Translations under genes and position numbers: made by a program | Assembly (NCBI GenBank): GCA_963744965.1 | Contig: CAVUVT010000008.1 | Span: forward strand, 69,767-133,766 | DNA from: an uncultured Verrucomicrobiae bacterium | Lineage (GTDB): Bacteria; Verrucomicrobiota; Verrucomicrobiia; Limisphaerales; UBA11358 | Reading direction: 5' to 3' | DNA: 64,000 nucleotides | Shown here: one piece after another, positions 11,593 through 53,576 of the stretch | Layout: each line of letters opens with the position of its first letter | Position numbering within the stretch: position 1 is the first letter of the stretch | The notes under the pieces: model-generated | What the model was told of the DNA's origin: nothing | The model's database searches: none | The model's input: only the letters and a program-made list of their open reading frames with translations

Positions 11593-11651
11593 GTGGCACA
11601 GGCCTCCGGCCTGTGTGTTTGGTGAATCACAGGCGAGGACGCCTGTGCCAC
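11593..11651. repeat. REPIN, family 1 (GTGGCACAG...CTGTGCCAC)
   Basis: Two inverted GTGG+hairpin units: GTGGCACAGGCCTCCGGCCTGTG ... CACAGGCGAGGACGCCTGTGCCAC. Confidence 0.85.
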
Positions 11652-11656
11652 CTTGA

Positions 11657-12634
11657 TTACCTCGCAAAAATCTGGCGGATGACGTCTTCAATGGGCACTT
11701 CCTGAATGTCAATGTCGCTCACCGCCAAATCATCGAGCAGCGATTTGCAGACGGCGATGACACGGTCGCGTTTGACTTTGAACTGGATCGTGCCGGCGTT
11801 TTTTTCAACGACTTCGCCGTAACGCGCCAGATTTTCCGCCGGATAATCGTTCGCTTTTTCGCATTGAATGGTGACGAGTTTGAAATCAGCGAAGCGATCC
11901 ATGATTTCGGTCAATTTGCCATCGAAGAAGATTTTGCCGCGGTCAATGATGATGACCCGGTCGCAAAGCGCCTGAATGTCGGCCATGTAATGGCTCGTGA
12001 GCAAAATCGTCGTCTTTTGCCCGGTGTTGTGGCGAAGGATGAATTCGCGGACGATTTTTTGCGAAACCACGTCGAGGCCAATGGTCGGTTCGTCGAGGAA
12101 CAACACCTTGGGCTGGTGCAGCAGCGAGGCGATCAGTTCCATCTTCATGCGTTCGCCGAGCGACAGTTCGCGCACGCTGATGTTGAGCTTGTCGCGGACG
12201 TTGAGCATTTCGCTCATTTCGGTGACGGTGCGCTCAAACCGATCGGCGGGGATGCCGTAAATTTTAGCGTTCAGCTCGAGCGATTCACGCGCGGGGAGGT
12301 CCCACCAAAGCTGGTTTTTCTGGCCGAGCACGAGCGCGAACTGGCGGCGGTAGCCGTCGGCGCGTTCCCACGGCACGTAACCGAGCACGCGGGCCGAGCC
12401 GCCGGTGGGATAAAGCAAACCGGCGAGCATCTTGAGCGTGGTGGTCTTGCCCGCGCCATTGGGACCGAGAAAACCGACCAGTTCGCCGGGTTCAATCTTG
12501 AAGCTGACGTCGTTGACGGCGATGGTTTGTTCGTATTGGCGATGGAACAGCCCTTTGATGGCGCCGCCAAATCCCGGCTGCTTTTTGTAAGTGCGAAAGG
12601 CCTTGGTGAGACCGCTGACTTCAATGACGGGCAT
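11657..12634 (-). CDS. ABC transporter ATP-binding protein
   Basis: Walker A GPNGAGKTT, signature LSLGERMK and Walker B LFLDEPT. Confidence 0.9.
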   Translation of the reverse strand: MPVIEVSGLTKAFRTYKKQPGFGGAIKGLFHRQYEQTIAVNDVSFKIEPGELVGFLGPNGAGKTTTLKMLAGLLYPTGGSARVLGYVPWERADGYRRQFALVLGQKNQLWWDLPARESLELNAKIYGIPADRFERTVTEMSEMLNVRDKLNISVRELSLGERMKMELIASLLHQPKVLFLDEPTIGLDVVSQKIVREFILRHNTGQKTTILLTSHYMADIQALCDRVIIIDRGKIFFDGKLTEIMDRFADFKLVTIQCEKANDYPAENLARYGEVVEKNAGTIQFKVKRDRVIAVCKSLLDDLAVSDIDIQEVPIEDVIRQIFAR

Positions 12635-15265: not shown

Positions 15266-18163
15266 ATGGCGACCGATTACAAAAACACGCTCAACCTGCC
15301 GCGCACCGGCTTTCCCATGAAAGCCGACCTCGTTGCGCGGGAGCCGGAACGGCTCAAAAAATGGGAAGCCGCGCGGCTCTACCAAAAAATTCAGGAGCAA
15401 CGCATCGGCGCGGGAAAATTTGTTCTGCACGACGGCCCGCCCTTTGCCAACGGCGATGTCCACATCGGCACCGCGCTGAACAAGATTCTCAAGGACATCA
15501 TCATCAAATACAAAACCCTGCGGAATTTCAGCGCCCCGTATATACCGGGCTGGGATTGCCATGGATTGCCCATCGAATTCAAGGTTTCCCAGGAGATGCG
15601 CAAGGGGAGCGCGAACGTCCCGCCTGCGGATAAATCATTTGACGCCGCCACCATCCGCAAAGCCTGCGAAGCCGACGCCCGCAAATACATTGACATCCAG
15701 CGCACCCAATTCAAACGCCTCGGCGTCCTCGGCGACTGGGATAATCCGTATCTGACGCTGACCAAGGAATACGAAGCCGACGAGCTGCGCCTGTTTGCAG
15801 ACATCGTTGAAAAGGGTTTTGTCTATCGCGGCAAAAAACCGGTCTATTGGAGCATTCCCTGCCGCACCGCGCTCGCCGAAGCCGAGGTCGAATATCAGGA
15901 CCATGTCAGCCAGAGCATTTTTGTGAAGTTTCCCGTCGTCGGCCAGCCCAACACGTTTGTGCTCATCTGGACGACCACGCCTTGGACGCTGCCCGCCAAC
16001 CTCGCCGTTGCTTACAACGACAAATTCCAATATGTCCAGGTCGAGGTCACAGGTGAAAAATACATTTTATTCCGCGGTTTGCTGTCCGCCGTCGCGGAGA
16101 AGTGCGGCTGGAGCAATTACAACGAACAACCGTTCCCAACCGAAAAACTTGCCGCACTGCAGTTTCAGCATCCGTTCTGCAACCGCACTGGCAGATTTTA
16201 CCCCGCTGACTTCGTCACCAGCGACACCGGCACCGGTTTTGTCCACATCGCACCCGGCCACGGTCTCGAAGACTACGGTCTGGGCATGAAAGTCGGACTG
16301 CCGATTTATTCGCCCGTGGACGATGACGGCAAGTTCGCCTACACGAATGATTTGCCGGTCGAACAACAGATGCCGAAAGAAATGGTCGGCAAGTCCATTC
16401 TCGAAAAGCATGGCAAGAGCGATGCGAACGAAGCCGTGCTGCACGAATTGCGCGCGCGTCATGCTTTGTTGCACCAAGAGAATTATCATCACAGTTACCC
16501 GCATTGCTGGCGCAGCAAGACACCCATCATCTTCCGCGCGATGGACCAGTGGTTCATCAAGATTGACCACGTCGTGGCACAGGCCTCCGGCCTGTGTGCC
16601 GATGCCAAAAACACAGACCAGAGGTCTGTGCCACAAACCTTTCGCGCCGCTGCCCTCGCCGAGATTGACCGCGTGAAATGGGTCCCGGACTGGTGCGTCA
16701 ATCGCATCAAAAGCCTGGTGCAAACCCGTCCCGACTGGTGCATCTCGCGCCAGCGCACGTGGGGCGTGCCGATTCCGGCATTTTACGACGCCACGGGTGA
16801 ACCGATGCTCGATGCCCAAATCGTCCGCAACACTGCCGATCTGGTTGAAAAACACGGTTCCAACGTCTGGTTCGAGAAATCCGCCGCTGAACTGTGGTCA
16901 CTCGTAAAACCGAAGAATTGGAAAGGCGCGGAAGCCGTCAACAAGTCCAACGATACGCTCGATGTGTGGATTGATTCCGGCTCGTCCTCGCGCTCCGTTT
17001 TGATGCGACGGGCGGAATTTTCTCATTCCACAATCCACAATCCGCAATCCGCATTGGACTGGCAGGCCGACGTCTATCTCGAAGGCAGTGACCAGCACCG
17101 CGGCTGGTTCCAATCATCGCTGCTGCTGTCACTCGCGGGCAACGGTGCCGCGCCGTTCAAGACCGTGCTCACGCATGGATTCATGGTGGATGCCGACCGC
17201 GAAAAGATTTCCAAGAGCAAACAGGCCCAGGGCGGCTACGAAAAACCGCAGACGGCCGAGGCTTACGTGAAGAAACACGGCGCGGACATCGTCCGCCTGT
17301 GGGTCGCGTCACAAGATTATCGCAACGACATCATCGTGAGCGAGGAACGCATTGCCAAAGTCGGCGAAACCTATCGCGGCATCCGCAACGCCCTGCGCTA
17401 CCAACTCTCGAACCTTTGCGACTTCGATCCGGCCAAGCACACCGTGCGCGAAGACGAACTTACCGGCCTCGACCGCTGGATTCTTGGCGAATTCTCCAAA
17501 CTCGAACAGGAAGTTCTCAAAGCTTACGACGACTACGAATTCCACGTAGTCTATCAAAAAGTCAGCCAGTTCATCGCCGTGGAGCTGTCCTCAATTTACC
17601 ACGACGTCATCAAGGATCGGCTCTACACCGACCCGGCCAATTCGCATCGCCGCCGCTCGACACAGACCACGCTGCACCGGCTGGTGACCGGCCTGTGCCA
17701 GATGCTCGCGCCGATTCTGGCGTTCACGGCGGACGAAGCGTGGGAGTTTGTGCCGAAAGCTGTCGTCTCGGTTCATCAAAGTGAATGGATAGCCAGACCG
17801 TTTATGCTCGATCCTCGTGAGCTCGATATATGGGATTGGCTCAAGCTCTGGCGCGAACAACTTCTTCCCGAACTGGAAAAGGCGCGTCAGGCCAAAGCAA
17901 TTGGCAAAGCATTGGAAGCCAAAGTTGAAATCGTCATACCGCAAGTTCAAAATCAGTATTCCGATCGGGAATTGCTCCGCGAACTCGTCAACGTATCGGC
18001 TTTGAAAATTACTGTTGGCAATCCCGTTTCAATCTCGGTTTCTAAAGCCGACGGCCAGAAATGCGAGCGCTGCTGGCATTGGGAAACGGATGTCGGCCAG
18101 AACGCCGAGCATCCGACCATTTGCGGTCGTTGTATCGAGGCGGTGAAACAATTCAAAATGTGA
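15266..18163 (+). CDS. ileS: isoleucine--tRNA ligase
   Basis: N-terminus MATDYKNTLNLPRTGFPMK, HIGH (GDVHIGT), KMSKS (KISKSK) and a C-terminal zinc finger CERCW...CGRC. Confidence 0.97.
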   Translation: MATDYKNTLNLPRTGFPMKADLVAREPERLKKWEAARLYQKIQEQRIGAGKFVLHDGPPFANGDVHIGTALNKILKDIIIKYKTLRNFSAPYIPGWDCHGLPIEFKVSQEMRKGSANVPPADKSFDAATIRKACEADARKYIDIQRTQFKRLGVLGDWDNPYLTLTKEYEADELRLFADIVEKGFVYRGKKPVYWSIPCRTALAEAEVEYQDHVSQSIFVKFPVVGQPNTFVLIWTTTPWTLPANLAVAYNDKFQYVQVEVTGEKYILFRGLLSAVAEKCGWSNYNEQPFPTEKLAALQFQHPFCNRTGRFYPADFVTSDTGTGFVHIAPGHGLEDYGLGMKVGLPIYSPVDDDGKFAYTNDLPVEQQMPKEMVGKSILEKHGKSDANEAVLHELRARHALLHQENYHHSYPHCWRSKTPIIFRAMDQWFIKIDHVVAQASGLCADAKNTDQRSVPQTFRAAALAEIDRVKWVPDWCVNRIKSLVQTRPDWCISRQRTWGVPIPAFYDATGEPMLDAQIVRNTADLVEKHGSNVWFEKSAAELWSLVKPKNWKGAEAVNKSNDTLDVWIDSGSSSRSVLMRRAEFSHSTIHNPQSALDWQADVYLEGSDQHRGWFQSSLLLSLAGNGAAPFKTVLTHGFMVDADREKISKSKQAQGGYEKPQTAEAYVKKHGADIVRLWVASQDYRNDIIVSEERIAKVGETYRGIRNALRYQLSNLCDFDPAKHTVREDELTGLDRWILGEFSKLEQEVLKAYDDYEFHVVYQKVSQFIAVELSSIYHDVIKDRLYTDPANSHRRRSTQTTLHRLVTGLCQMLAPILAFTADEAWEFVPKAVVSVHQSEWIARPFMLDPRELDIWDWLKLWREQLLPELEKARQAKAIGKALEAKVEIVIPQVQNQYSDRELLRELVNVSALKITVGNPVSISVSKADGQKCERCWHWETDVGQNAEHPTICGRCIEAVKQFKM
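16574..16634. repeat. family 1 REPIN inside the ileS coding sequence
   Basis: GTGGCACAGGCCTCCGGCCTGTG...CACAGACCAGAGGTCTGTGCCAC, translated in frame as VAQASGLCADAKNTDQRSVPQ. Confidence 0.85.
17024..17058 (+). repeat. heptamer array (CAATCCR x5) inside ileS
   Basis: CATTCCA CAATCCA CAATCCG CAATCCG CATTGGA, encoding HSTIHNPQSAL. Confidence 0.8.
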
Positions 18164-19511: not shown

Positions 19512-19593
19512 CGTGAAGCCGTTCAAGGTATAATTGTGGCACAGACCTCCGGTCTGTGTTCCCAACCCCTCACAGGTCGGAGACCTGTGCCAC
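19512..19593 (+). repeat. direct repeat unit 1: ileS-tail-like 21 nt (VKPFKV*) plus family 1 REPIN
   Basis: GTGAAGCCGTTCAAGGTATAA + REPIN 19536-19593. Near-identical to 19806-19887. Confidence 0.8.
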
Positions 19594-19773
19594 ACTTTGC
19601 GCTGGCCGTTGCTGCGTCAGAAATCCGGCTCAGGACATTTCCAAGCTCCGTCCCGCCTTCGTTCAACTTCGGCGCGGTAAACAGGAGCGGCATATTCCGT
19701 CCGTTCACCAGAGGATGTCGCTCCTGACGGAGCTTGGGAATTCTACAAAACGAAAAGCTACAAATATGCCGCG

Positions 19774-19827
19774 CCTACGGCGCTTTGCGGACGTTGCATC
19801 GAGGCTGTGAAACCGTTCAAGGCATAA
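19774..19827 (+). pseudogene. relic of the ileS 3' end (PTALCGRCIEAVKPFKA*)
   Basis: About 80% nucleotide identity by eye to 18112-18163 (PTICGRCIEAVKQFKM*). No upstream ileS body. Confidence 0.75.
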
Positions 19828-19829
19828 AC

Positions 19830-19887
19830 GTGGCACAGACCTCTGGTCTGCGTTTCCAATCCCTCACAGGCCGGAGGCCTGTGCCAC
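19830..19887. repeat. REPIN, family 1
   Basis: GTGGCACAGACCTCTGGTCTGCG...CACAGGCCGGAGGCCTGTGCCAC. Ends 1 nt before the GH28 stop codon. Confidence 0.9.
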
Positions 19888-19888
19888 A

Positions 19889-21271
19889 TTAAAACCCGCC
19901 GCCCTTGTTGTTGATGAAGCTGATGCGGTTGGTGTAGCTGAACGAGTTGGCAGTGGAAGTGTTCAGGAACCGGCAATTGGAGACGGTCACGTCCGTAATC
20001 TGGTTCGCGGAACTCAATCCTAGCATATAAATCGCTTGGGCCACATTGGCAAAGGCGCAATCACGGACGTCAATGTTGCGGACAATTGGTGTGTTGGTGC
20101 CGGTGTTGGCCGGGGAAGAGGAAGTGTACTGCATCGTCATGTAAACCCCGGTGTCGGTGGCGATCTTGGTCATGCAGTTGCGAAAGTAAATATTTTCCAT
20201 GTAACCGCCCCGGGCGGTGTTGGTCTTCAAACGCAAAACCGTTTGCAGGATGGTGCTGTTGAAATCGCAATTTTCCGCGAAAACATTGGTGACGCCGCCG
20301 GATTCCTCGCTGCCGACGGTGACGCCGCCGTGGCCGTCGGCAAACGTGCAGTTCTGAATCACGATGTTCCGGCTGGGTATGTTGACGCGCAGACCGTCCT
20401 GATCGCGCCCGGATTTGATGGCGATGCAATCGTCGCCGTCGCTGAAGGAACAGTTTTTGATGAGCACATCGGTGCAGGAGTCTGGGTCGCAGGAGTCCGT
20501 GTTCGGGCTGGAGCTGCTGTTGTTGACCGTCACGCCGTGAATGGTGACGTTGGTGCAATACAGCGGAGTGACCGTCCACATCGGCGAGTTGAGAAAGGTG
20601 ACGCCGTCAATCAGGACATTCTGGCAATGAACGGGCTGGACGAAAGTTGGCCGCAGATAATGTCCCGGCCCAAAAATGCGCTGCGCCACGGGCATGTTGG
20701 TGCTGGCCATGTTCCACAACAATTGCTCGTCGGCGGTGAGCAAATTTTTCCAATTGTACCAGACCGAGTTCTCCGCCTGTCCGTCAATCGTTCCCGGCCC
20801 CGTGATGGCGATGTTCGTCTGGCCGTAAGCGTAGATGAATGGCGAATAATTCATCAACTCGATGCCCTGATAGCGGGTGAAAACCACCGGCAGAAACGAA
20901 TTCGTGTTGGTGCTGAACAGAATTGTTCCACTCTGGGCGACATACAAATTGATGTTGTTGAGCAGATGAATCGCGCCGGTCAGGAATGTCCCCGCCGGCA
21001 CGACCACGCGCCCGCCACCGGCTGCATTGCAGGCCACAATCGCGCTGGAAAAGGCCGCCGTGCAGTCGGTTGTGCCATTGCCCACCGCGCCGTAGTTCGT
21101 GATGACAAAATCCTGCGCCGGAAAGGTTGGCGGAATGATGCGCGCGAGAATGTTGGTCACCCGCGCCCAATCGCTGGGACTGGTCTGCGCGGCCAGCCGC
21201 GCCGGCAGCAGCAAACCGAAACCGATGGCCAGGGCGGTGATAACTTTGTTTGAGTGTCGGCGTAAAAACAT
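19889..21271 (-). CDS. glycoside hydrolase family 28 (polygalacturonase-like)
   Basis: Signal peptide. Motifs NTDSCD, GDDCIAIKSG and GHGGVTVGSE in parallel beta-helix repeats. Confidence 0.85.
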   Translation of the reverse strand: MFLRRHSNKVITALAIGFGLLLPARLAAQTSPSDWARVTNILARIIPPTFPAQDFVITNYGAVGNGTTDCTAAFSSAIVACNAAGGGRVVVPAGTFLTGAIHLLNNINLYVAQSGTILFSTNTNSFLPVVFTRYQGIELMNYSPFIYAYGQTNIAITGPGTIDGQAENSVWYNWKNLLTADEQLLWNMASTNMPVAQRIFGPGHYLRPTFVQPVHCQNVLIDGVTFLNSPMWTVTPLYCTNVTIHGVTVNNSSSSPNTDSCDPDSCTDVLIKNCSFSDGDDCIAIKSGRDQDGLRVNIPSRNIVIQNCTFADGHGGVTVGSEESGGVTNVFAENCDFNSTILQTVLRLKTNTARGGYMENIYFRNCMTKIATDTGVYMTMQYTSSSPANTGTNTPIVRNIDVRDCAFANVAQAIYMLGLSSANQITDVTVSNCRFLNTSTANSFSYTNRISFINNKGGGF

Positions 21272-21415
21272 GATGTCCTCAATTTAACGGTGAAATCGGG
21301 TTCGAAAATGACAAATTCCCTGGAACGGATTGAAAAAGCACATTTGTCCCTTATACTATCACGATGTGCCAAAGAGTCAAAAGCCGGGGCCAATTGCCGG
21401 TTGACCATCGGCAAA

Positions 21416-22561
21416 ATGAACATTTTGAAAAACAGCTTCCGGAATAACTGCGTGCCGGTCATTGCACTTTTGGCGCTCATCCTGATTTTTGGACAACGAG
21501 CATCGGGCAACACGGTGATTGCCTGGGGCTATGATTCCGCCGGCCAGATTGAAATTCCCGCGGGTCTGACGAATGTTGCCGCGGTCGCAGGCGGCGCCTA
21601 TCACAGCCTGGCGCTTACCGGCAACGGCACGGTCGTTGCCTGGGGCGACAACACTTTCGGTCAAATCAACGTGCCGGCCAACCTGACGAACTCAACAGCC
21701 ATTACCGCGGGCTGGTATCACGACCTGGCGCTGAAAAGCAACGGCACGGTCGTCGCGTGGGGCGACAATTCCTTCGGCCAGACGAATGTGCCGTCATCGT
21801 TGACCAACGTCAGCGCCATCGCCGCCGGCTGGATTCATAATCTCGCGCTCCGCAGCAATGGCGTCGTTGTGGCGTGGGGTGACAACGGCTGGGGACAGAC
21901 CAACGTTCCGTCCGGCTTGGCGAATGTCGTGGGGATTGCCGCCGGCGAATTGCACAATCTGGCGCTCAGGAATGACGGCACGGTCGTCGCGTGGGGTGAC
22001 AACACTTACGGCCAGACGAATGTCCCGGCGGGTTTGACGGGCGTGGCCGCAATCGCTTGTGGCTGGTTTCACAGTCTGGCCGTCAGGAGCAACGGCACGG
22101 TGGTCGTGTGGGGCGACAATTCCTTCGGCCAGACGAACGCGCCGGCGGGTTTGACGAACGCAAAAACCATCGCTGGCGGCAGCGCACACAGTTTGTTATT
22201 GGAGAGCAATGCCACAATGGTCGCCTGGGGAAACGATTATTTTGGGCAGACGAACCTGCCGCCGGGACCGGGTCAGGTATTGGCAATTGCCACCGGCGGG
22301 TATCACAGTCTGGCGGTCTCGACGCCAGCCATTCCTCCGCTTGTTTTCAACCTGGTCCCGCCGAACCTGCAAATGACCGCCGCCGGTTTTCAATTGCAGG
22401 TGGATGGCGCGGCCGGAATTACACCGGTGGTGATTTACGCCTCGACGAATTTGGTAAATTGGATGCCCATTTTCACAAATCCGCCGGTGGCCGGCTCAGT
22501 GCCATTCCTGGATTCTTCAGCCACAGGTTTTTCGCATCGGTTCTATCGGGCCGGGGAATAG
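21416..22561 (+). CDS. secreted RCC1-repeat protein with FYR-type C-terminal domain
   Basis: Signal peptide, at least 7 tandem repeats of about 50 aa (VVAWGDNxFGQTNVP), and the tail STNLVNW...RFYRAGE. Confidence 0.85.
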   Translation: MNILKNSFRNNCVPVIALLALILIFGQRASGNTVIAWGYDSAGQIEIPAGLTNVAAVAGGAYHSLALTGNGTVVAWGDNTFGQINVPANLTNSTAITAGWYHDLALKSNGTVVAWGDNSFGQTNVPSSLTNVSAIAAGWIHNLALRSNGVVVAWGDNGWGQTNVPSGLANVVGIAAGELHNLALRNDGTVVAWGDNTYGQTNVPAGLTGVAAIACGWFHSLAVRSNGTVVVWGDNSFGQTNAPAGLTNAKTIAGGSAHSLLLESNATMVAWGNDYFGQTNLPPGPGQVLAIATGGYHSLAVSTPAIPPLVFNLVPPNLQMTAAGFQLQVDGAAGITPVVIYASTNLVNWMPIFTNPPVAGSVPFLDSSATGFSHRFYRAGE

Positions 22562-22608: not shown

Positions 22609-22665
22609 GTGGCACAGACCTCTGGTCTGTGTTTCAAACCCACACAGGCCGGAGGCCTGTGCCAC
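22609..22665. repeat. REPIN, family 1
   Basis: GTGGCACAGACCTCTGGTCTGTG...CACAGGCCGGAGGCCTGTGCCAC, between convergent genes. Confidence 0.9.
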
Positions 22666-22669
22666 ATAT

Positions 22670-23773
22670 TCAAGCTGGTTGCTGTTGGGTCAGGCAGTGC
22701 AGCGAACCGGAACCGAGCACCAGGTCAACGGCATGAATCCCCACCACCGGTCGGTCCCGGAACAATTCGCCCAAAATGCCGAGCGCAATCCGATCGTTCG
22801 GATCGTTGAACGTCGGGACGATGACGCAGGCATTGGCGATGTAAAAATTCGCGTAACTCGCGGGCAGCCGGCGGCTGCCAAAATAAAGCGGCGCCGGCAT
22901 GGGCAACGGCACCACTTCGGGTTTTGAACCATCTTCGAGACGGAAAGTCTGAATGCGCTCCCAGTTTTCCGCGAGCGGCTTGTAATTGACGTCGCGTTTG
23001 TTTTTTTCCCGGATGAGCACGAGGGTTTTGCGATTTACGAAACGGCAGATGTCGTCAATGTGCCCGTGCGTGTCATCGCCCGCCGGGCCTTTGCGCAGCC
23101 ACAGGACGTTTTTGACGCCGAGATATTTTTTGAACGTCTCGTCGTATTGCACCTTCGTCAGGCCGGGATTGCGCACCTGGATTTTGGGATGGAGGTAACA
23201 TTCCTCGGTGGTCAGCAGCGTGCCGCGGCCGTTCACCTCGATGCCGCCGCCTTCGATGATAAAATTTCGGCCTTGGAACTGCGCGTTGAACAACGGCTGC
23301 TTCAGGAGTCTGGCGGCCATTTCCGGAATCCGGGTGTCCTTCTGCCAGTCGGCATATTTCGCCCAGGCATTGAAATGAAAATGGACAATGGCGGTCTTAA
23401 ATTGCGGATTGCGGATTGCGGATTGCGGATTCCTTCGTTTAACGAAGATCGGCCCGCTGTCGCGCATCCAGCCGCGATTGGTCGGATGCACAATAAATTC
23501 AACCCGTTTCAAATCACAACCCGCGCGTTTCAAATAAACGGCGGCAAGTTTTTGCTCGGCCCGGTTCCGGACGAGGATGCGCACGAGTTCGCCCGGTGAA
23601 ATCTTCCGGACCATTTCGCCATAAACCCAGCGGACGGCCTCCATCTTGCCCGGCCAATCGGCCTCATGATGCGGCCAGGCGAGCCAGGTGGCGGCGTGCC
23701 TTTCCCATTCCGCCGGCATGGAGCAGCCGAGTTCGGCGGGCGCGGCGGCATCTGGGATTTTGGGTTGCGGCAT
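22670..23773 (-). CDS. aguA: agmatine deiminase
   Basis: WLAWPHHEADWPG near the N-terminus and the C-terminal catalytic GSGSLHCLTQQQP. Confidence 0.88.
   Translation of the reverse strand: MPQPKIPDAAAPAELGCSMPAEWERHAATWLAWPHHEADWPGKMEAVRWVYGEMVRKISPGELVRILVRNRAEQKLAAVYLKRAGCDLKRVEFIVHPTNRGWMRDSGPIFVKRRNPQSAIRNPQFKTAIVHFHFNAWAKYADWQKDTRIPEMAARLLKQPLFNAQFQGRNFIIEGGGIEVNGRGTLLTTEECYLHPKIQVRNPGLTKVQYDETFKKYLGVKNVLWLRKGPAGDDTHGHIDDICRFVNRKTLVLIREKNKRDVNYKPLAENWERIQTFRLEDGSKPEVVPLPMPAPLYFGSRRLPASYANFYIANACVIVPTFNDPNDRIALGILGELFRDRPVVGIHAVDLVLGSGSLHCLTQQQPA
23401..23431. repeat. perfect heptamer tandem repeat (ATTGCGG x4.4) inside aguA
   Basis: ATTGCGG repeated 4 times plus a partial unit. The coding strand reads AATCCGC units encoding RNPQSAIRNPQ. 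Confidence 0.9.
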
Positions 23774-28938: not shown

Positions 28939-29092
28939 GTAGCACCCGCGTCTCGCGGGTTGAATTCGGCGTCCCGCCGAATTCTGTTGTGTGACATAGG
29001 TTGCAGGCAATCGGGCAAGTGTGAAACGTTCGTTCGTCCCGCAACAGTTTCGGGCGGGACGCCCGAAACAACAGGCCGGAGGCCTGTGCTAC
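28939..29092. repeat. REP cluster: family 2 REP plus second hairpin, an inverted second-hairpin module, and a family 1 half-REP
   Basis: GTAGCACCCGCGTCTCGCGGGT + GAATTCGGCGTCCCGCCGAATTC (28939-28985); GTTTCGGGCGGGACGCCCGAAAC (29047-29069); ACAGGCCGGAGGCCTGTGCTAC (29071-29092). Confidence 0.8.
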
Positions 29093-32025
29093 CCCAGACT
29101 CACCGGATCAATATCCACCATGAGCGTTACGTCTTCGGGCAAGACGAGCGTTTCGATGATTTTTGCCAGGGCCAGGCTCAGTTTGCTCATCGCGCGCGTC
29201 CGCAGCATGATTTGGTAGCGGTAAAAAGTTTCCGCGCGCAGCAATGGTGCCGGCGCCGGACCGGCGATGATTAAGTCGCGGAAGTCCACAGTCTTCAGTC
29301 CACAGTCGGATTTTGCGCTGGCCGGACCGTCTGAGGGCTGAGGACTGTGAACTGTGGACTGCGGATTGCGGACTGCGGACTCAAGGACTTTTCGCAAATG
29401 TTCGGCGGAAAATTTTACCTTGTCCTCATTGCGGCCCTTGAGCGTGAGCAGCGCGACACGACTGACGGGCGGATATTTCAGTTGTTCACGGAACTCGATT
29501 TCCTGTTCGTAAAAGCCGGGGAAGTCGTGGCGGCGCGAGTATTGAATCGCCGGATGAAACGGCGCAAATGCCTGCACGAACACCTCGCCCTCAACGTCGC
29601 CGCGGCCGGCGCGCCCGGCGACCTGCGTGAGCAGTTGGAAGGTGCGCTCGCCCGCGCGAAAATCCGGCTGATGTAGCGCGAGATCGGCGTAAATGATGCC
29701 CACGAGCGTGACGTTCGGGAAATGCAGCCCCTTCGCAATCATCTGCGTCCCGACGAGGATGTCGGTCTTGCCGGTGCGGAAATCTCCGAGCGTTTTCCGG
29801 TAATCATCCTTGCGTTTCATCGTGTCGGCGTCCATGCGTTTGACGCGCGCTTGGGGAAATAGTTTGGCGAGCGTCTCCTCGACCCGCTGCGTGCCCGTGC
29901 CGGCAAAACGAATCGCGGGATTTTTGCATTTTTCGTTCGGGCAAACGGACGGCACCGGCGCGACATGACCGCAAATGTGGCAGCAAAGCTTTTGCTCCTG
30001 CCGATGAAACGTGAGCGCCAGGCTGCAATTCGGACATTGCGCCACGTAACCGCATTTCGGGCATTGCAGCGAAGTCGAGTAGCCGCGCCGGTTCAAAAAC
30101 AAAATCGTTTGCTCGCCACGTTCGAGCCGTTGGGTGATGGCTTCCTTGAGTTGTGGCGAAAAAATCGGGATGCCTTCCTTCCCGCGCTGGCGGGACGCGG
30201 CTTGGCGCATGTCCACGACGCGTACGTGCGGCATTTTCTGGTCGTCCACGCGCTCCGGCAATTCGAGCAGCGTATATTTGCCGTGTTTGCAATTGTAATA
30301 GCTTTCCAGCGACGGTGTGGCCGAACCGAGCACGACGACGGCATTTTCCATCCGGCCGCGCATAATGGCCACGTCGCGGGCATGGTAGCGCGGCGCTTCC
30401 TCCTGCTTGTAGGTGTGCTCGTGTTCCTCGTCCACGATGATGAGGCCGAGCGGCTCGACCGGCGCAAAAATCGCCGAACGGGCGCCAATGACGATGCGGG
30501 CACGGCCTTGGCGGATTTTGTGCCATTCGTCATGGCGTTCGCCGGCGGACAAATGCGAATGCAAGACCGCCACGAGCGTTTGCAGTCTGCCGGAACTGAA
30601 CCGCGCCTTGAATCGCTCGACCGTCTGCGGTGTGAGCGAGATTTCCGGCACAAGCACAATCGCACCCTGGCCTCGTTCGAGCGCGTGGGCGAGGGCTTGG
30701 AGGTAGATTTCCGTCTTGCCCGAGCCGGTGACTCCATGAAGCAAGAAAACTTGAGATGGCTTTGCGGTGTCCGATTCCTGTTGTGTAGCACCCGCGTCTC
30801 GCGGGTCATGTTTGGCGTCCCGCCGAACATTTTCAAGGGTGTCGGATGCCACCGGCGTCCAGATGTAAGGATAATCTTCCATGGGTCCGACCAGCCCAAT
30901 CGTCCGCGGGTTGTTCCAAATGTAATCCCAGGTTTTGTGCAAGTCTGCTTCGGATCGAATCAGGCGGTCAAAGGATTCATCCGTCCAGACCGGCCCGGAA
31001 CGTTGCATCACCTTGTTCACCTCGTGGGCGGAAAATGATTTGATACTGTGTAGAATTCCGGTGAGCGAGTGGACCCCGTCTTTTCCGGCTTCCTGAGTCG
31101 GTAAAGGTTGAATCAGCAAATGAACGTGGTCAGGCATGACACACGCGGCGTAACATTTCACTTTTTTACCGTGCCAGTGATGGCAGGCTTCCAGCGTTTT
31201 GGTGCGCGCCTCGGGAGAAAGAACAAGCTTATCGTGCGTCCGCCAGGTGACGTGATAGGTAAAACCCGGAATTTCAAAATGCGGCAGGCTGCGTTTGCGG
31301 GCGGTGGTTTCTGAAATCGGACCGGGTTTGGTTGCCGTACGAGAAGCGGGCGCGACGCCCGCCTCCACCCGCGTCCCGCGGGTGCTACCACAGCGATTCA
31401 TCGCCGCGATGATTTTCTCCAACGCTTTTGCCTGGGCATCATTCAATGCCAGCGGCTGGGACGGCAGAATATGTTCGCGGGCATACGGATCGCGCTCGGA
31501 AATCTGCGGGGCAATCTCAATCAGACCGCGGTCTTCAAGTTTGCGGACAGTGGCGGCGGTGGTTTCGGCCAGTTCGACCAACTCCTGCAACGGCAATTCA
31601 CGCCGTTCTTCGATGATGTTCCACACCTCGTGTTGACGTTTCGGCAATTTTGGAAATTCGCCGGGCGGTGGCACTGCGCGGACAAACAATCGCTCGCGCC
31701 AGCCGGATTCCTCCTTGCGCACGGCTTCGGGCAGAACGGATTTCAGCGCGGTTTCCGGCGCGCAACAGTAGTAATCGGCAATCCAGCGCGCGAGTTTCAG
31801 GACCTTCGGCGTGACGAGCGTCTGGGCGCCGATGACTTTCAGAATGGGTTTGAGATTGGTATGTGCGGATTCCTCGGCGAGGGCGGTGACGCAACCCAGG
31901 ATTTTTCGCGGGCCGAATGGCACCTGTACGCGGCTGCCGACCTCGATTTGTCCGGCCAATCCGGGCGGAATCTGATAATCGAACTCCTTGCGGAGCGCGA
32001 TTTCGAGGCTGACGCGGGCAATCAT
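29089..32025 (-). CDS. priA: primosomal replication-restart helicase PriA carrying in-frame insertions (978 aa)
   Basis: PriA N-terminal domain, Walker A GVTGSGKTEIYL, DEEH box, and Cys-rich zinc region CPKCG...CPNCS...CHICGH. About 211 extra aa lie before Walker A and about 33 extra aa near the C-terminus. Confidence 0.9.
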   Translation of the reverse strand: MIARVSLEIALRKEFDYQIPPGLAGQIEVGSRVQVPFGPRKILGCVTALAEESAHTNLKPILKVIGAQTLVTPKVLKLARWIADYYCCAPETALKSVLPEAVRKEESGWRERLFVRAVPPPGEFPKLPKRQHEVWNIIEERRELPLQELVELAETTAATVRKLEDRGLIEIAPQISERDPYAREHILPSQPLALNDAQAKALEKIIAAMNRCGSTRGTRVEAGVAPASRTATKPGPISETTARKRSLPHFEIPGFTYHVTWRTHDKLVLSPEARTKTLEACHHWHGKKVKCYAACVMPDHVHLLIQPLPTQEAGKDGVHSLTGILHSIKSFSAHEVNKVMQRSGPVWTDESFDRLIRSEADLHKTWDYIWNNPRTIGLVGPMEDYPYIWTPVASDTLENVRRDAKHDPRDAGATQQESDTAKPSQVFLLHGVTGSGKTEIYLQALAHALERGQGAIVLVPEISLTPQTVERFKARFSSGRLQTLVAVLHSHLSAGERHDEWHKIRQGRARIVIGARSAIFAPVEPLGLIIVDEEHEHTYKQEEAPRYHARDVAIMRGRMENAVVVLGSATPSLESYYNCKHGKYTLLELPERVDDQKMPHVRVVDMRQAASRQRGKEGIPIFSPQLKEAITQRLERGEQTILFLNRRGYSTSLQCPKCGYVAQCPNCSLALTFHRQEQKLCCHICGHVAPVPSVCPNEKCKNPAIRFAGTGTQRVEETLAKLFPQARVKRMDADTMKRKDDYRKTLGDFRTGKTDILVGTQMIAKGLHFPNVTLVGIIYADLALHQPDFRAGERTFQLLTQVAGRAGRGDVEGEVFVQAFAPFHPAIQYSRRHDFPGFYEQEIEFREQLKYPPVSRVALLTLKGRNEDKVKFSAEHLRKVLESAVRNPQSTVHSPQPSDGPASAKSDCGLKTVDFRDLIIAGPAPAPLLRAETFYRYQIMLRTRAMSKLSLALAKIIETLVLPEDVTLMVDIDPVSLG
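29283..29381. repeat. 99-nt heptamer-array inverted repeat inside priA
   Basis: Left arm AGTCCACAGTCTTCAGTCCACAGTC. Right arm GACTGTGAACTGTGGACTGCGGATTGCGGACTGCGGACT. Translated as VRNPQSTVHSPQPSDGPASAKSDCGLKTVD. Confidence 0.8.
30785..31388 (-). mobile_element. REP-RAYT-REP unit (Y1 HUH transposase flanked by inverted GTAG hairpins) nested in priA
   Basis: Protein motifs FTYHVTWRT, PDHVHLLIQP (HUH) and WDYIWNNP (catalytic Tyr). Termini are GTAGCACCCGCG-NNN-CGCGGGT at 30785-30806 (plus strand) and 31388-31367 (minus strand). Confidence 0.8.
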
Positions 32026-41852: not shown

Positions 41853-41922
41853 GTAGCCGCGGACGTCAGTCCGCGCATTCTCATTTTTAGGCGGATCAGC
41901 GCCGACTGACGTCGGCGGCTAC
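41853..41922. repeat. REPIN (GTAGCCGC type) between hemE and hemN
   Basis: GTAGCCGCGGACGTCAGTCCGCG ... GCGCCGACTGACGTCGGCGGCTAC. Two inverted GTAG+hairpin units. Confidence 0.85.
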
Positions 41923-43313: not shown

Positions 43314-43318
43314 TTTTT

Positions 43319-43463
43319 AGCCACAGATGAAACACAGATTGAACACAGATAAAAAATCTGACTGACCCGGCAGCGCTGGTGTTATATGTCACGATGACTT
43401 CGCAAGTTTTATCAAAGCAGAATTGTCATTTATCTGTGTTTCATCTGTGTTCAATCTGTGGCT
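43319..43463. mobile_element. MITE-like element with AGCCACAGAT-type arrayed terminal inverted repeats
   Basis: Left arm AGCCACAGATGAAACACAGATTGAACACAGATAAA. Right arm TTTATCTGTGTTTCATCTGTGTTCAATCTGTGGCT. Non-coding core of about 75 nt. Confidence 0.7.
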
Positions 43464-43475
43464 GAATAAATTTCA

Positions 43476-48510: not shown

Positions 48511-48588
48511 GTGGGGCGAGCGTACTCGCGAGCCGGCCTTAACGCGCCCAAGCCGAGCGGCGGCTGCTCGTCAATAGCCTCGCCCCAC
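48511..48588. repeat. GTGG-type REPIN-like palindrome
   Basis: GTGGGGCGAGCGTACTCGCGAGCC ... CCTCGCCCCAC. Confidence 0.6.
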
Positions 48589-53236: not shown

Positions 53237-53240
53237 CTTG

Positions 53241-53568
53241 AGCCACAGATGAACACAGATGAAACACAGATTTTCAAAAATGACGCTTCACCAGAAACTT
53301 GATTGGCTGATTGACCAGTGGTGTGAACGCAGAGCGGTGCGGCCACTGAAATGTCTTTTACGGGCTTATCCTGGTGTGCTGGTTCACAAAGACCAGTTTG
53401 GTGATTTGCTTGAAGCCCGCCGGGATGCAAAAGGTTTGTGTCGAGACGAATTAACCCAAGATGAACTTGGATATGTACTCTCATCCATCAATGAACTGGA
53501 AGATTGCATGAAACAGAAAACTAAATGATTTGGCTTCATCTGTGTTCAATCTGTGTTCATCTGTGGCT
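53241..53568. mobile_element. AGCCACAGAT-type inverted-repeat cassette carrying one small ORF
   Basis: Left arm AGCCACAGATGAACACAGATGAAACACAGAT. Right arm ATCTGTGTTCAATCTGTGTTCATCTGTGGCT. Same terminal family as 43319-43463. Confidence 0.7.
53280..53528 (+). CDS. hypothetical small protein (82 aa; 89 aa if started at 53259)
   Basis: MTLHQKLDWLIDQWCERRAV... with helical composition and lower GC. No family recognised. Confidence 0.45.
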   Translation: MTLHQKLDWLIDQWCERRAVRPLKCLLRAYPGVLVHKDQFGDLLEARRDAKGLCRDELTQDELGYVLSSINELEDCMKQKTK

Positions 53569-53576
53569 AAAATAAA

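What the first reader, a model, noticed from the sequence alone, without database searches (positions are those of the whole stretch)
16574..16634. Family 1 REPIN translated within isoleucyl-tRNA synthetase
- The 61-nt sequence GTGGCACAGGCCTCCGGCCTGTG...CACAGACCAGAGGTCTGTGCCAC has the same termini and two-hairpin design as the intergenic copies at 11593, 19536, 19830 and 22609.
- It is read through as ...IDHVVAQASGLCADAKNTDQRSVPQTFRAAALAEI...
- From my memory of E. coli IleS ([27 protein letters not shown]), the homologous stretch lacks about 21 residues exactly here.
Basis: partly seen in the sequence, partly recalled or inferred. Interest (0 to 1): 0.65.

Follow-up and report, generated by a model that had tools for sequence, protein, structure and literature searches.

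The report
Mobile DNA hairpin translated inside IleRS
A 61-base mobile palindromic repeat (REPIN type) sits in frame inside the essential isoleucyl-tRNA synthetase gene of a verrucomicrobial genome and adds 21 amino acids to a normally two-residue loop; this kind of event is already described, but here the same codon position holds a dozen or more different such elements in related genomes.

Summary

- **The element.** Window 16574-16634 is a fifth copy of a local inverted REP doublet. The other four copies lie just after gene ends. It is read in frame inside a complete 965-aa IleRS.
- **The site.** Close orthologues with an empty site have two codons where this gene has 23. In 46 of 61 IleRS from other phyla the loop keeps that short length.
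- **Age.** Eight orthologues compared, plus a ninth partial copy, share the same copy and junctions, so it is old.
- **Constraint.** The two 23-nt arms vary at 2 of 46 positions, and those two pair with each other. Flanking third codon positions vary at 116 of 158. The 15-nt spacer changes freely, amino acids included. The constraint is therefore on the nucleic acid, not the peptide.
- **Hot spot.** In relatives the same position holds at least a dozen other hairpin elements, mostly with GTAG...CTAC ends. A second ileS site, around residue 588, behaves the same way.
- **Transposase.** A RAYT-type transposase domain lies 12 kb away, itself in frame inside priA. Its flanking REPs share the GTAGCAC head.
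- **Precedent.** Intragenic REP dimers, including one in an IleRS and about 70 intragenic REPs (single units and dimers) in Opitutus terrae, were published in 2013.

Verdict: a new member of a known kind, with an unusually clear hot spot.

The parts
16574..16634 (+). REPIN-type element (inverted REP doublet) inside ileS. Left REP 16574-16596, spacer 16597-16611, right REP 16612-16634.
   Evidence: Folds at -40.5 kcal/mol, z -6.8. Stop-free in all six frames.
16571..16639 (+). The 23 codons (V436-T458) that stand where empty-site orthologues have 2 codons. They comprise GTC, the 61-nt element and AAACC.
   Evidence: The empty allele L081 reads GAC CAC|CAG AAA|TTC.
15266..18163 (+). ileS, 965 aa, complete type-1 bacterial IleRS that hosts the element.
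   Evidence: Pfam tRNA-synt_1, Anticodon_1 and zf-FPG_IleRS. Matches 8c9e over residues 4-962, E 1.5e-227.
11593..11651 (.). Extragenic copy of the same family, directly after the stop of the ABC-ATPase gene (11657..12634, minus strand).
   Evidence: An orthologous copy is present in L084; the site is empty or holds other families in relatives.
19536..19593 (.). Extragenic copy.
19830..19887 (.). Extragenic copy, abutting the stop of the ORF 19889..21271 (minus strand).
22609..22665 (.). Extragenic copy between two convergent genes (21290..22561 plus strand, 22670..23773 minus strand).
29069..29092 (-). Single REP with the family-1 hairpin but a GTAG head (GTAGCACAGGCCTCCGGCCTGTT). It forms the right arm of a composite element 28939-29092 whose left arm is the RAYT-type REP.
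   Evidence: (I1).
30785..31388 (-). REP-RAYT-REP unit read in frame inside priA. It is the candidate transposase for REPs with a GT(A/G)GCAC head.
   Evidence: HUH and Y motifs. ORF. Pfam Y1_Tnp 29.5 bits, above the cut-off of 23. 45-53% identity to proteins that sources name 'REP element-mobilizing transposase RayT'. Flanking inverted REPs (I5, D20).

Best explanation
**What it is.** The 61 nt are a copy of a lineage-specific REPIN: two 23-nt REP hairpins in inverted orientation around a 15-nt spacer. It entered the DNA that codes a two-residue loop of IleRS, between the strand ...QWFIxIDH and the helix FRxxALxEI, just after the editing domain.

**Why it survived (inferred).** With its few flanking bases it adds a multiple of three (net +63 nt), has no stop codon, and the loop tolerates extra residues. 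It is therefore translated as 21 extra residues of a functional enzyme.

**How it got there (inferred).** By single-strand transposition catalysed by a RAYT (Y1/HUH) transposase. One is encoded 12 kb away.

**What is shown.**
- The copy is old and inherited: eight orthologues compared, plus a ninth partial copy, share it.
- Its arms are held constant at the nucleotide level, while the spacer and its amino acids drift.
- The position is a hot spot that at least a dozen other REP or REPIN families occupy in related genomes.

**Why this position.** The most likely reason is a selection filter, since very few places in an essential 965-aa enzyme accept 20-40 extra residues. Re-use of an occupied site, or replacement in place, probably contributes.
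For: **Family membership and extragenic siblings.**

**Intact host gene.**

**Empty sites.** They occur in close relatives. The loop span QWF..W.P.W is 28 aa in 42 of 61 IleRS from other phyla, and 26-29 aa in 46 of 61.

**Loop tolerance.** H. pylori IleRS (8wnf) naturally has about 10 extra residues in this loop.

**Single old insertion.**
- Junctions are identical (CAY GTC|element|AA ACC) in all but L168, whose flanks carry two substitutions (ATT..AACCC). An ileS-specific spacer is shared by window, L084/85, L086, L087, L162 and L167-L170.
- Flanks have diverged by 14-15%.
- In the comparison, alleles with this element were closest to the window at third codon positions (0.26-0.31 against 0.33-0.47 for other alleles, except L089 at 0.27, which carries a different element).

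**Constraint on the arms.**
- Arms: 2 of 46 positions vary. These two pair with each other and turn a C.A mismatch into U.G.
- Arm third codon positions: 1 of 15 vary, against 116 of 158 in the flanks (Fisher p = 4.6e-7).
- Spacer: 9 of 15 positions vary, with amino-acid changes.

**Hot spot.**
- At least 12 unrelated hairpin elements of -30 to -55 kcal/mol occupy the same position.
- A second site in ileS behaves the same way.
- An intergenic site does too.

**RAYT in the window.**. A REP that combines the GTAGCAC head with the family-1 hairpin lies at 29069-29092.

**Published precedent.** Intragenic REP dimers coding 20-30 aa, including one in an IleRS (PMC3733652).
Against: - Translation is not demonstrated. 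No proteome or transcript data are available here.
- Whether the genome has a second, undecorated ileS cannot be seen from one window.
- The head is GTGG rather than GTAG.
- The RAYT found is flanked by REPs with a different hairpin, so cognate pairing is unproven.
- No mobility was observed.
- The surface-loop claim rests on sequence alignment only. The AlphaFold model was unusable (pLDDT 51.8).
- Frozen arms are not expected for a purely passive passenger, so there may be more to it than tolerated junk.
Confidence: 0.85

Rival explanations
1. Domesticated hairpin. The element is kept in ileS because the DNA or mRNA hairpin does something in cis. Possibilities include a translational pause between the editing domain and the second half of the catalytic fold, control of mRNA stability or processing, or a binding site for a REP-binding protein. 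This is compatible with the origin given in the best explanation; it differs on why the element persists.
For: Arms vary at 2 of 46 positions in 8 orthologues, although flanking third positions vary at 116 of 158. The only arm change is a paired one that improves the stem. The spacer is free to change. The hairpin is about -40 kcal/mol.
Against: Relatives do well with an empty site or with unrelated hairpins. Loss of one pair in a 23-bp stem should matter little, yet the existing mismatches and the wobble pair are also conserved; this points to sequence recognition rather than stability. There is no terminator-like or promoter-like signal at the element and no Rfam family.
Confidence: 0.25
2. 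Site-specific integration or cassette exchange. The hot spot arises not from tolerance of the loop but because the transposase targets this sequence, or targets a resident REP and swaps one element for another in place.
For: - Different families share identical non-palindromic flanks. Family 1 and the GTAGGACAGGC family both sit in GTC..AAACC. Three families share the 3' flank GGAGAAAC.
- All GTAG-type elements at both ileS sites are read in the one frame GTA-Gxx and lie 0 or 3 nt after a His codon.
- An intergenic site shows the same turnover within about 3 nt.
Against: - Other families at the site have different flanks.
- The loop is only two codons long, so any viable insertion must fall within a few bases.
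- The flank tree is unresolved: L082 is nested in the family-1 clade in 46% of bootstraps, and family 1 is monophyletic in 9%.
- No common target motif was seen in the flanks of the five window copies.
Confidence: 0.3
3. Adaptive protein loop. The 21 residues were kept because they give IleRS a new property, such as contact with tRNA or with a partner protein.
For: The insert is conserved in length and retained in nine lineages.
Against: The amino acids of the spacer vary (A to S, V or D; K to Q; D to N; N to D), while conservation follows the DNA arms, third positions included. Relatives carry unrelated peptides or none at all.
Confidence: 0.06
4. Not part of the protein. The gene is a pseudogene, or the insert is removed from the RNA or protein, or it is an assembly artefact.
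For: None directly. Translation was not observed.
Against: - The ORF is intact with all domains.
- The same allele appears in independent assemblies from several sources; P0016 alone is on 22 contigs.
- All 120 closest orthologues keep the frame through inserts of many lengths. This would be unnecessary if the insert were spliced out.
- 21 aa is far too short for an intein.
Confidence: 0.03

Closest known systems
Intragenic GTAG- and CGTC-tagged REPs ('REP-decorated proteins'), Di Nocera et al. 2013, BMC Genomics 14:522 (PMC3733652)
   Same: REP dimers lying wholly inside ORFs, in frame and coding 20-30 aa. They are most numerous in the verrucomicrobium Opitutus terrae (about 70 cases). One case is a dimer in the IleRS of Erythrobacter litoralis (ELI_13550, 965 aa, residues 467-488). 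Different REPs sit at about the same site in Xanthomonas recB.
   Different: That study describes single genomes. It does not report many families at one codon position across relatives, nucleotide-level conservation of the arms inside a coding region, or decay remnants. Here the head is GTGG. I could not obtain the E. litoralis sequence to see whether it is the same loop.
REPIN-RAYT systems (Bertels & Rainey 2011, PLoS Genet 7:e1002132, PMC3116915)
   Same: Two inverted REPs forming a long hairpin. Many copies, mostly just after genes. A lineage-restricted family: among the 166 loci (2.36 Mb) held it occurs only in the closest relatives, and four further ileS copies were fetched afterwards. 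Long vertical persistence. A Y1/HUH RAYT flanked by REPs is present.
   Different: REPINs are described as extragenic; this copy is coding. The RAYT here is not a free gene but is read in frame inside priA, and its flanking REPs share only the 7-nt head with this family.
Rickettsia palindromic elements (RPE), as summarised in the MITE review PMC10969869
   Same: Palindromic mobile repeats inserted in frame into housekeeping genes, tolerated and translated.
   Different: RPEs are about 100-150 bp, belong to another phylum and have unrelated sequence. In that case each element family codes a conserved peptide. Here the conservation follows the DNA arms.
IS200/IS605-type single-strand 'peel and paste' transposition (mechanistic model for RAYTs; PMC6006769)
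   Same: A Y1 HUH enzyme, subterminal hairpins, and no target duplication. None is seen at the five copies.
   Different: No activity has been shown for this RAYT. Target choice is unknown.

Membership tests
REPIN (REP doublet forming a hairpin) | Two REP units in inverted orientation separated by a short spacer, able to form one long hairpin. | tested here: met
   23-nt arms and a 15-nt spacer. -40.5 kcal/mol, z -6.8.
REPIN (REP doublet forming a hairpin) | Each REP is itself a short imperfect palindrome. | tested here: met
   CACAGGCC-TCC-GGCCTGTG and CACAGACC-AGA-GGTCTGTG.
REPIN (REP doublet forming a hairpin) | Over-represented, multi-copy, mostly extragenic and close to gene 3' ends. | tested here: met
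   12 heads against 0.57 expected. Five elements in 64 kb, four of them after gene ends. A whole-genome count is not possible from the window.
REPIN (REP doublet forming a hairpin) | A cognate RAYT gene flanked by the same REP. | tested here: inconclusive
   A RAYT domain lies at 30785-31388. Its flanking REPs share the head GTAGCAC but have another hairpin. A REP combining that head with the family-1 hairpin lies at 29069-29092.
REPIN (REP doublet forming a hairpin) | RAYT-dependent mobility. | not testable with these tools
   The only evidence is indirect: presence or absence at orthologous sites.
GTAG-REP superfamily (Di Nocera 2013) | Conserved GTAG tetranucleotide at the REP terminus. | tested here: not met
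   All five doublets start with GTGG. Only the single REP at 29069-29092 has GTAG. Most other elements at the same ileS site in relatives do have GTAG...CTAC.
Intragenic REP / REP-decorated protein | The repeat lies wholly inside a real ORF, in frame and without a stop codon. | tested here: met
Intragenic REP / REP-decorated protein | Orthologues lacking the insert exist. | tested here: met
   9 of 120 proteins and 39 of the 81 loci in which the site was located; DNA shown for L081.
Intragenic REP / REP-decorated protein | The insert sits in a loop compatible with the fold. | tested here: inconclusive
   By alignment the site falls between I415 and D417 of 8c9e. H. pylori 8wnf has a naturally longer loop there. 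The AlphaFold model was too poor to use.
Classical MITE | Terminal inverted repeats plus a target-site duplication. | tested here: not met
   No direct repeat flanks any of the five copies.
Rickettsia palindromic elements | Sequence membership in RPE families of about 100-150 bp, with a conserved encoded peptide. | not tested
   Size (61 nt) and phylum differ. No RPE sequences were at hand for comparison.
Known structured RNA family | A match to an Rfam model. | tested here: not met
   Only one tRNA in the whole window reached a gathering score.

The most novel reading that the evidence does not exclude
The ileS loop, like the second ileS site and at least one intergenic site, may be a fixed landing pad where REPINs of different families are exchanged in place by a RAYT. 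Resident arms would be kept by selection because they remain recognised substrates or act as a cis hairpin on ileS expression. This would occur in a lineage whose RAYT has become a domain of the replication-restart helicase PriA, so that REPIN handling is coupled to stalled forks.
Probability: 0.15. Interest if true: 0.8.

Novelty: new member of a known kind. Interest (0 to 1): 0.5.

Why it matters
On its own this is one more example of a mobile palindrome tolerated inside an essential gene. The comparative picture is worth more, for three reasons.

- **A natural insertion-tolerance map of IleRS.** One two-residue loop of a universally length-conserved part of the enzyme has been colonised again and again by at least a dozen element families. 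Empty, filled and decayed states all survive in related genomes. This also records REPIN turnover.
- **A separation of constraints.** The peptide drifts while the DNA arms are frozen. This shows that a REPIN inside a coding region is still under selection as a nucleic acid, which bears on the open question of whether REPINs are parasites or serve the host.
- **A lead for mechanism.** The RAYT read in frame inside priA, seen nearby, is not described in the papers I could search.

Tried and rejected
- **AlphaFold2 of the 965-aa protein.** Run with 66 close homologues, it gave pLDDT 51.8 and pTM 0.28. I did not use it for mapping and ran no fold search on it.
- **Erythrobacter litoralis IleRS.** I tried to recover it through its published REP peptide. 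Whether that published case is the same loop stays open.
- **Scan of genome contigs with the whole protein.** These served as a length control but gave few close relatives. A clade-specific 82-aa query on metagenome contigs worked better.
- **Protein NJ tree of 120 orthologues.** It scatters the insert types. I do not read this as mosaic inheritance, because a DNA tree of the flanks is star-like and its bootstraps are indecisive.
- **Chance resemblance or ancestral loop.** Rejected.
- **Intrinsic terminator or promoter at the element.** None found.
- **Rfam family.** None.
- **The 12-mer hit at 17690-17701 inside ileS.** It has one mismatch and is the native GLCQ codons with no partner arm. 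I treated it as chance.
- **Literature on RAYT and PriA.** A search of the held library found nothing relevant.
Full report
**1. The observation**

Window 16574-16634 reads GTGGCACAGGCCTCCGGCCTGTG-TGCCGATGCCAAAAA-CACAGACCAGAGGTCTGTGCCAC. It lies in the ORF 15266..18163(+), whose 965-aa product reads ...QWFIKIDHVVAQASGLCADAKNTDQRSVPQTFRAAALAEIDRV....

The 12-nt head GTGGCACAGRCC, allowing up to one mismatch, occurs 12 times in the window against 0.57 expected; none of 100 shuffles reached 12. Ten of these hits are the two ends of five elements at 11593-11651, 16574-16634, 19536-19593, 19830-19887 and 22609-22665.

- The arms of different copies are 96-100% alike (I13, I14, I17, I18).
- Flanks are unrelated and show no target duplication.
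- Each copy folds into one long hairpin of -36 to -43.5 kcal/mol, z -5.8 to -8.1.
- The four other copies lie directly after gene ends, two of them within a few bases of a stop codon. This is the classical place for REP sequences.

**2. The host gene**

The ORF is a complete type-1 bacterial IleRS. Pfam finds tRNA-synt_1, Anticodon_1 and zf-FPG_IleRS. It matches P. megaterium IleRS1 (8c9e) over residues 4-962 with E 1.5e-227.

In that alignment 23 residues (DHVVAQ...SVP) face a gap. By alignment the site lies between I415 and D417 of 8c9e and just after QWFASISKV (about residue 419) of S. aureus 1ffy.

The closest homologues carry source names such as Verrucomicrobiota, Verrucomicrobiia or Limisphaerales bacterium. 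The source contig is NCBI GCA_052916025.1, JBLFKY010156141.1.

**3. Is it an insertion?**

Among the 120 closest IleRS (78-100% identity), 9 have IDH-xx-FR with only two residues at this place. DNA of one of them (L081) reads GAC CAC|CAG AAA|TTC CGC. The window reads GAC CAC|GTC GTGGCAC...GTGCCAC AA ACC|TTT CGC. So 23 codons replace 2, a net gain of 63 nt.

- 39 of the 81 loci in which the site was located, almost all metagenome contigs, are empty in the same way.
- In 61 IleRS from many phyla the span QWF...W.P.W is 28 aa in 42 cases and 26-29 aa in 46.
- H. pylori IleRS (8wnf), a solved structure, has about 10 extra residues in this very loop, so the loop can be lengthened.

**4. Age and constraint**

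The same element is present in L084/L085, L086, L087, L162, L167, L169 and L170 with the same junctions (CAY GTC|...|AA ACC), and in L168 with two substitutions in the flanks (ATT..AACCC). All share a spacer unlike that of the extragenic copies. These are independent assemblies.

Their ileS flanks differ at 14-15% of all positions. Among the loci compared, alleles with this element were closest to the window at third codon positions (0.26-0.31 against 0.33-0.47), apart from L089 at 0.27, which carries a different element. I conclude that there was one old insertion.

Across eight orthologues:

| Region | Variable positions |
|---|---|
| Flanks, third codon positions | 116 of 158 |
| Arms, third codon positions | 1 of 15 (Fisher p = 4.6e-7) |
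| Arms, all positions | 2 of 46 |
| Spacer, all positions | 9 of 15 |

- The two variable arm positions pair with each other in the long hairpin. In L167 they change a C.A mismatch to U.G.
- The spacer changes include amino-acid replacements (A to S, V or D; K to Q; D to N; N to D).
- The constraint is therefore on the nucleic-acid arms, not on the peptide.
- The specific left and right arm variants are the same in all copies, which argues against homogenisation by other genomic copies.
- What keeps the arms is not known. Stability alone seems too weak a reason, because the existing mismatches and the wobble pair are also conserved.

**5. The hot spot**

At the same position, after the His435 codon, the relatives carry at least a dozen other inserts of 20-45 aa. 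At the DNA level each is a hairpin of -30 to -55 kcal/mol, most with GTAG...CTAC ends. Examples are GTAGCAGCGGACGTGAGTCCGC..., GTAGGACAGGCGTCGCGCCTGTC..., GTAGGAGACGACGTGAGGAGTCTC... and GTAGCTGCGCTTGTAAAAGCGCGG....

- One of these families is present in the window as an extragenic copy at 41853-41922.
- Short non-palindromic stretches of 5-12 aa at the site look like decayed remnants.
- A second site, around residue 588, shows the same behaviour with partly the same families. In the window it holds a 7-nt tandem repeat at 17027-17050.
- An intergenic site (window 11593) is empty, or filled by four different families, in relatives.

So turnover at fixed places is a general habit of these elements in this clade.

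**6. Why the same position?**

A selection filter explains much, because only a few bases in a two-codon loop can accept an in-frame insert.

Some details hint at re-use of an occupied site or exchange in place:

- Different families share identical non-palindromic flanks.
- All GTAG-type elements at both ileS sites are read in the single frame GTA-Gxx.
- They lie 0 or 3 nt after a His codon.

Against this, other families have other flanks, and the flank phylogeny is star-like. I leave this as a rival at 0.3.

**7. The transposase**

A motif scan found one HUH...Y segment, at 30907-31128 on the minus strand. It lies inside the 978-aa priA ORF (29089..32025, minus strand) between the 3'-DNA-binding domain and the helicase core.

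- Pfam Y1_Tnp scores 29.5 bits, above the cut-off of 23.
- The segment is 45-53% identical to free 200-250-aa proteins that sources name 'REP element-mobilizing transposase RayT'.
- It is bracketed by inverted REPs with the head GTAGCAC (30785-30827 and 31342-31388). These are themselves translated.
- The ileS family shares the head, with G for A at the third base. A REP at 29069-29092 joins the GTAGCAC head to the family-1 hairpin.

A plausible mobilising enzyme therefore exists in the window, but the pairing is inferred.

**8. What is known**

Di Nocera et al. 2013 (PMC3733652) reported REPs and REP dimers inside genes, coding 20-30 aa.

- They are most numerous in the verrucomicrobium Opitutus terrae.
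- One dimer lies in the IleRS of Erythrobacter litoralis.
- Different REPs lie at about the same site in Xanthomonas recB.

Rickettsia palindromic elements are the older parallel.

The finding is thus a new member of a known kind. I did not find three things described in the held library:

- the multi-family hot spot across relatives;
- the contrast between frozen arms and a free spacer inside a coding region;
- the RAYT inside priA.

**9. Verdict**

- Best explanation, confidence 0.85: a REPIN-type element, most likely moved by a RAYT, that landed in a permissive IleRS loop. It is translated, has been inherited for a long time, and is still constrained as a DNA or RNA palindrome.
- Not shown: translation, mobility, the cognate RAYT, and the structural context.
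- Interest is 0.5.

Noticed in passing
window 29089-32025 (minus strand), RAYT part 30785-31388: priA (978 aa) carries a whole REP-RAYT-REP unit in frame between its 3'-DNA-binding domain and the helicase core (Pfam Y1_Tnp at residues 255-349). Among PriA representatives, three clusters at 90, 53 and 47% identity (P0241, P0244, P0246) have a Y1_Tnp domain at the same place, while the 71% relative P0242 (758 aa) lacks it. I found no paper on this in the held library. This may be more novel than the finding itself.
   Followed up: partly
window 17027-17053 (ileS residues about 588-596): A second repeat is translated in ileS: a 7-nt tandem repeat (TCCACAA x3.4), read as STIHNPQS. The same heptamer family lies at 23401-23431 (intergenic) and 29331-29381 (inside priA, read as AVRNPQSTVHSPQPS). 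In relatives this ileS site holds 20-37-aa hairpin elements of -40 to -72 kcal/mol, or is empty (RGQDK).
   Followed up: partly
window 15614-15628 (ileS residues 117-121, VPPAD): A third variable site in ileS. Relatives carry Pro/Ser-rich inserts of up to 29 aa here, for example PPADPSSSTSTGNPNEIGSSGKMPEAPSE. I did not examine them at the DNA level.
   Followed up: no
window 41853-41922: An extragenic hairpin GTAGCCGCGGACGTCAGTCCGCGC...GGCGGCTAC (-45 kcal/mol). It belongs to the family that occupies the ileS hot spot in L094 and L095, where it is read as VAADVSPL...LTSAAT.
   Followed up: partly
window 11593-11651 and loci L082, L084-L086, L167, L169: The intergenic site between the ABC-ATPase and deaminase genes is a hot spot too. 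It holds family 1 in the window and L084, three other hairpin families in L082, L086 and L167, and nothing in L085 and L169.
   Followed up: partly
proteins P0182, P0217, P0240: Some short protein fragments homologous to the RAYT also carry Pfam PF01411 (alanyl-tRNA synthetase). This suggests that RAYT units may sit in frame in alaS in some relatives.
   Followed up: no
window 19513-19594 and 19807-19888: Two family-1 copies are duplicated together with 23 nt of upstream flank (88% identical, 294 nt apart). The flank ends in TATAAT or CATAAA (D8).
   Followed up: no
window 43316-43466 and 53238-53571: Inverted arrays of an 11-nt unit (ATCTGTGTTCA / CACAGATGAAA) occur at two places 10 kb apart (I3, I4, D18). 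Their nature is unknown.
   Followed up: no
window 15461-15472 (IleRS residues 66-69): The class I signature reads HIGT instead of HIGH or HMGH. H66 and G68 are invariant and T69 nearly so in the 66 relatives aligned.
   Followed up: no
locus L099 10094-10186: The GTAG element at the ileS hot spot carries a heptamer tandem repeat (GAAATCC)n nested in its loop, so two repeat types are stacked in one insert.
   Followed up: no
window 48511-48588: A further 78-nt hairpin with GTGG...CCAC ends (-40.8 kcal/mol), not inside a long ORF.
   Followed up: no
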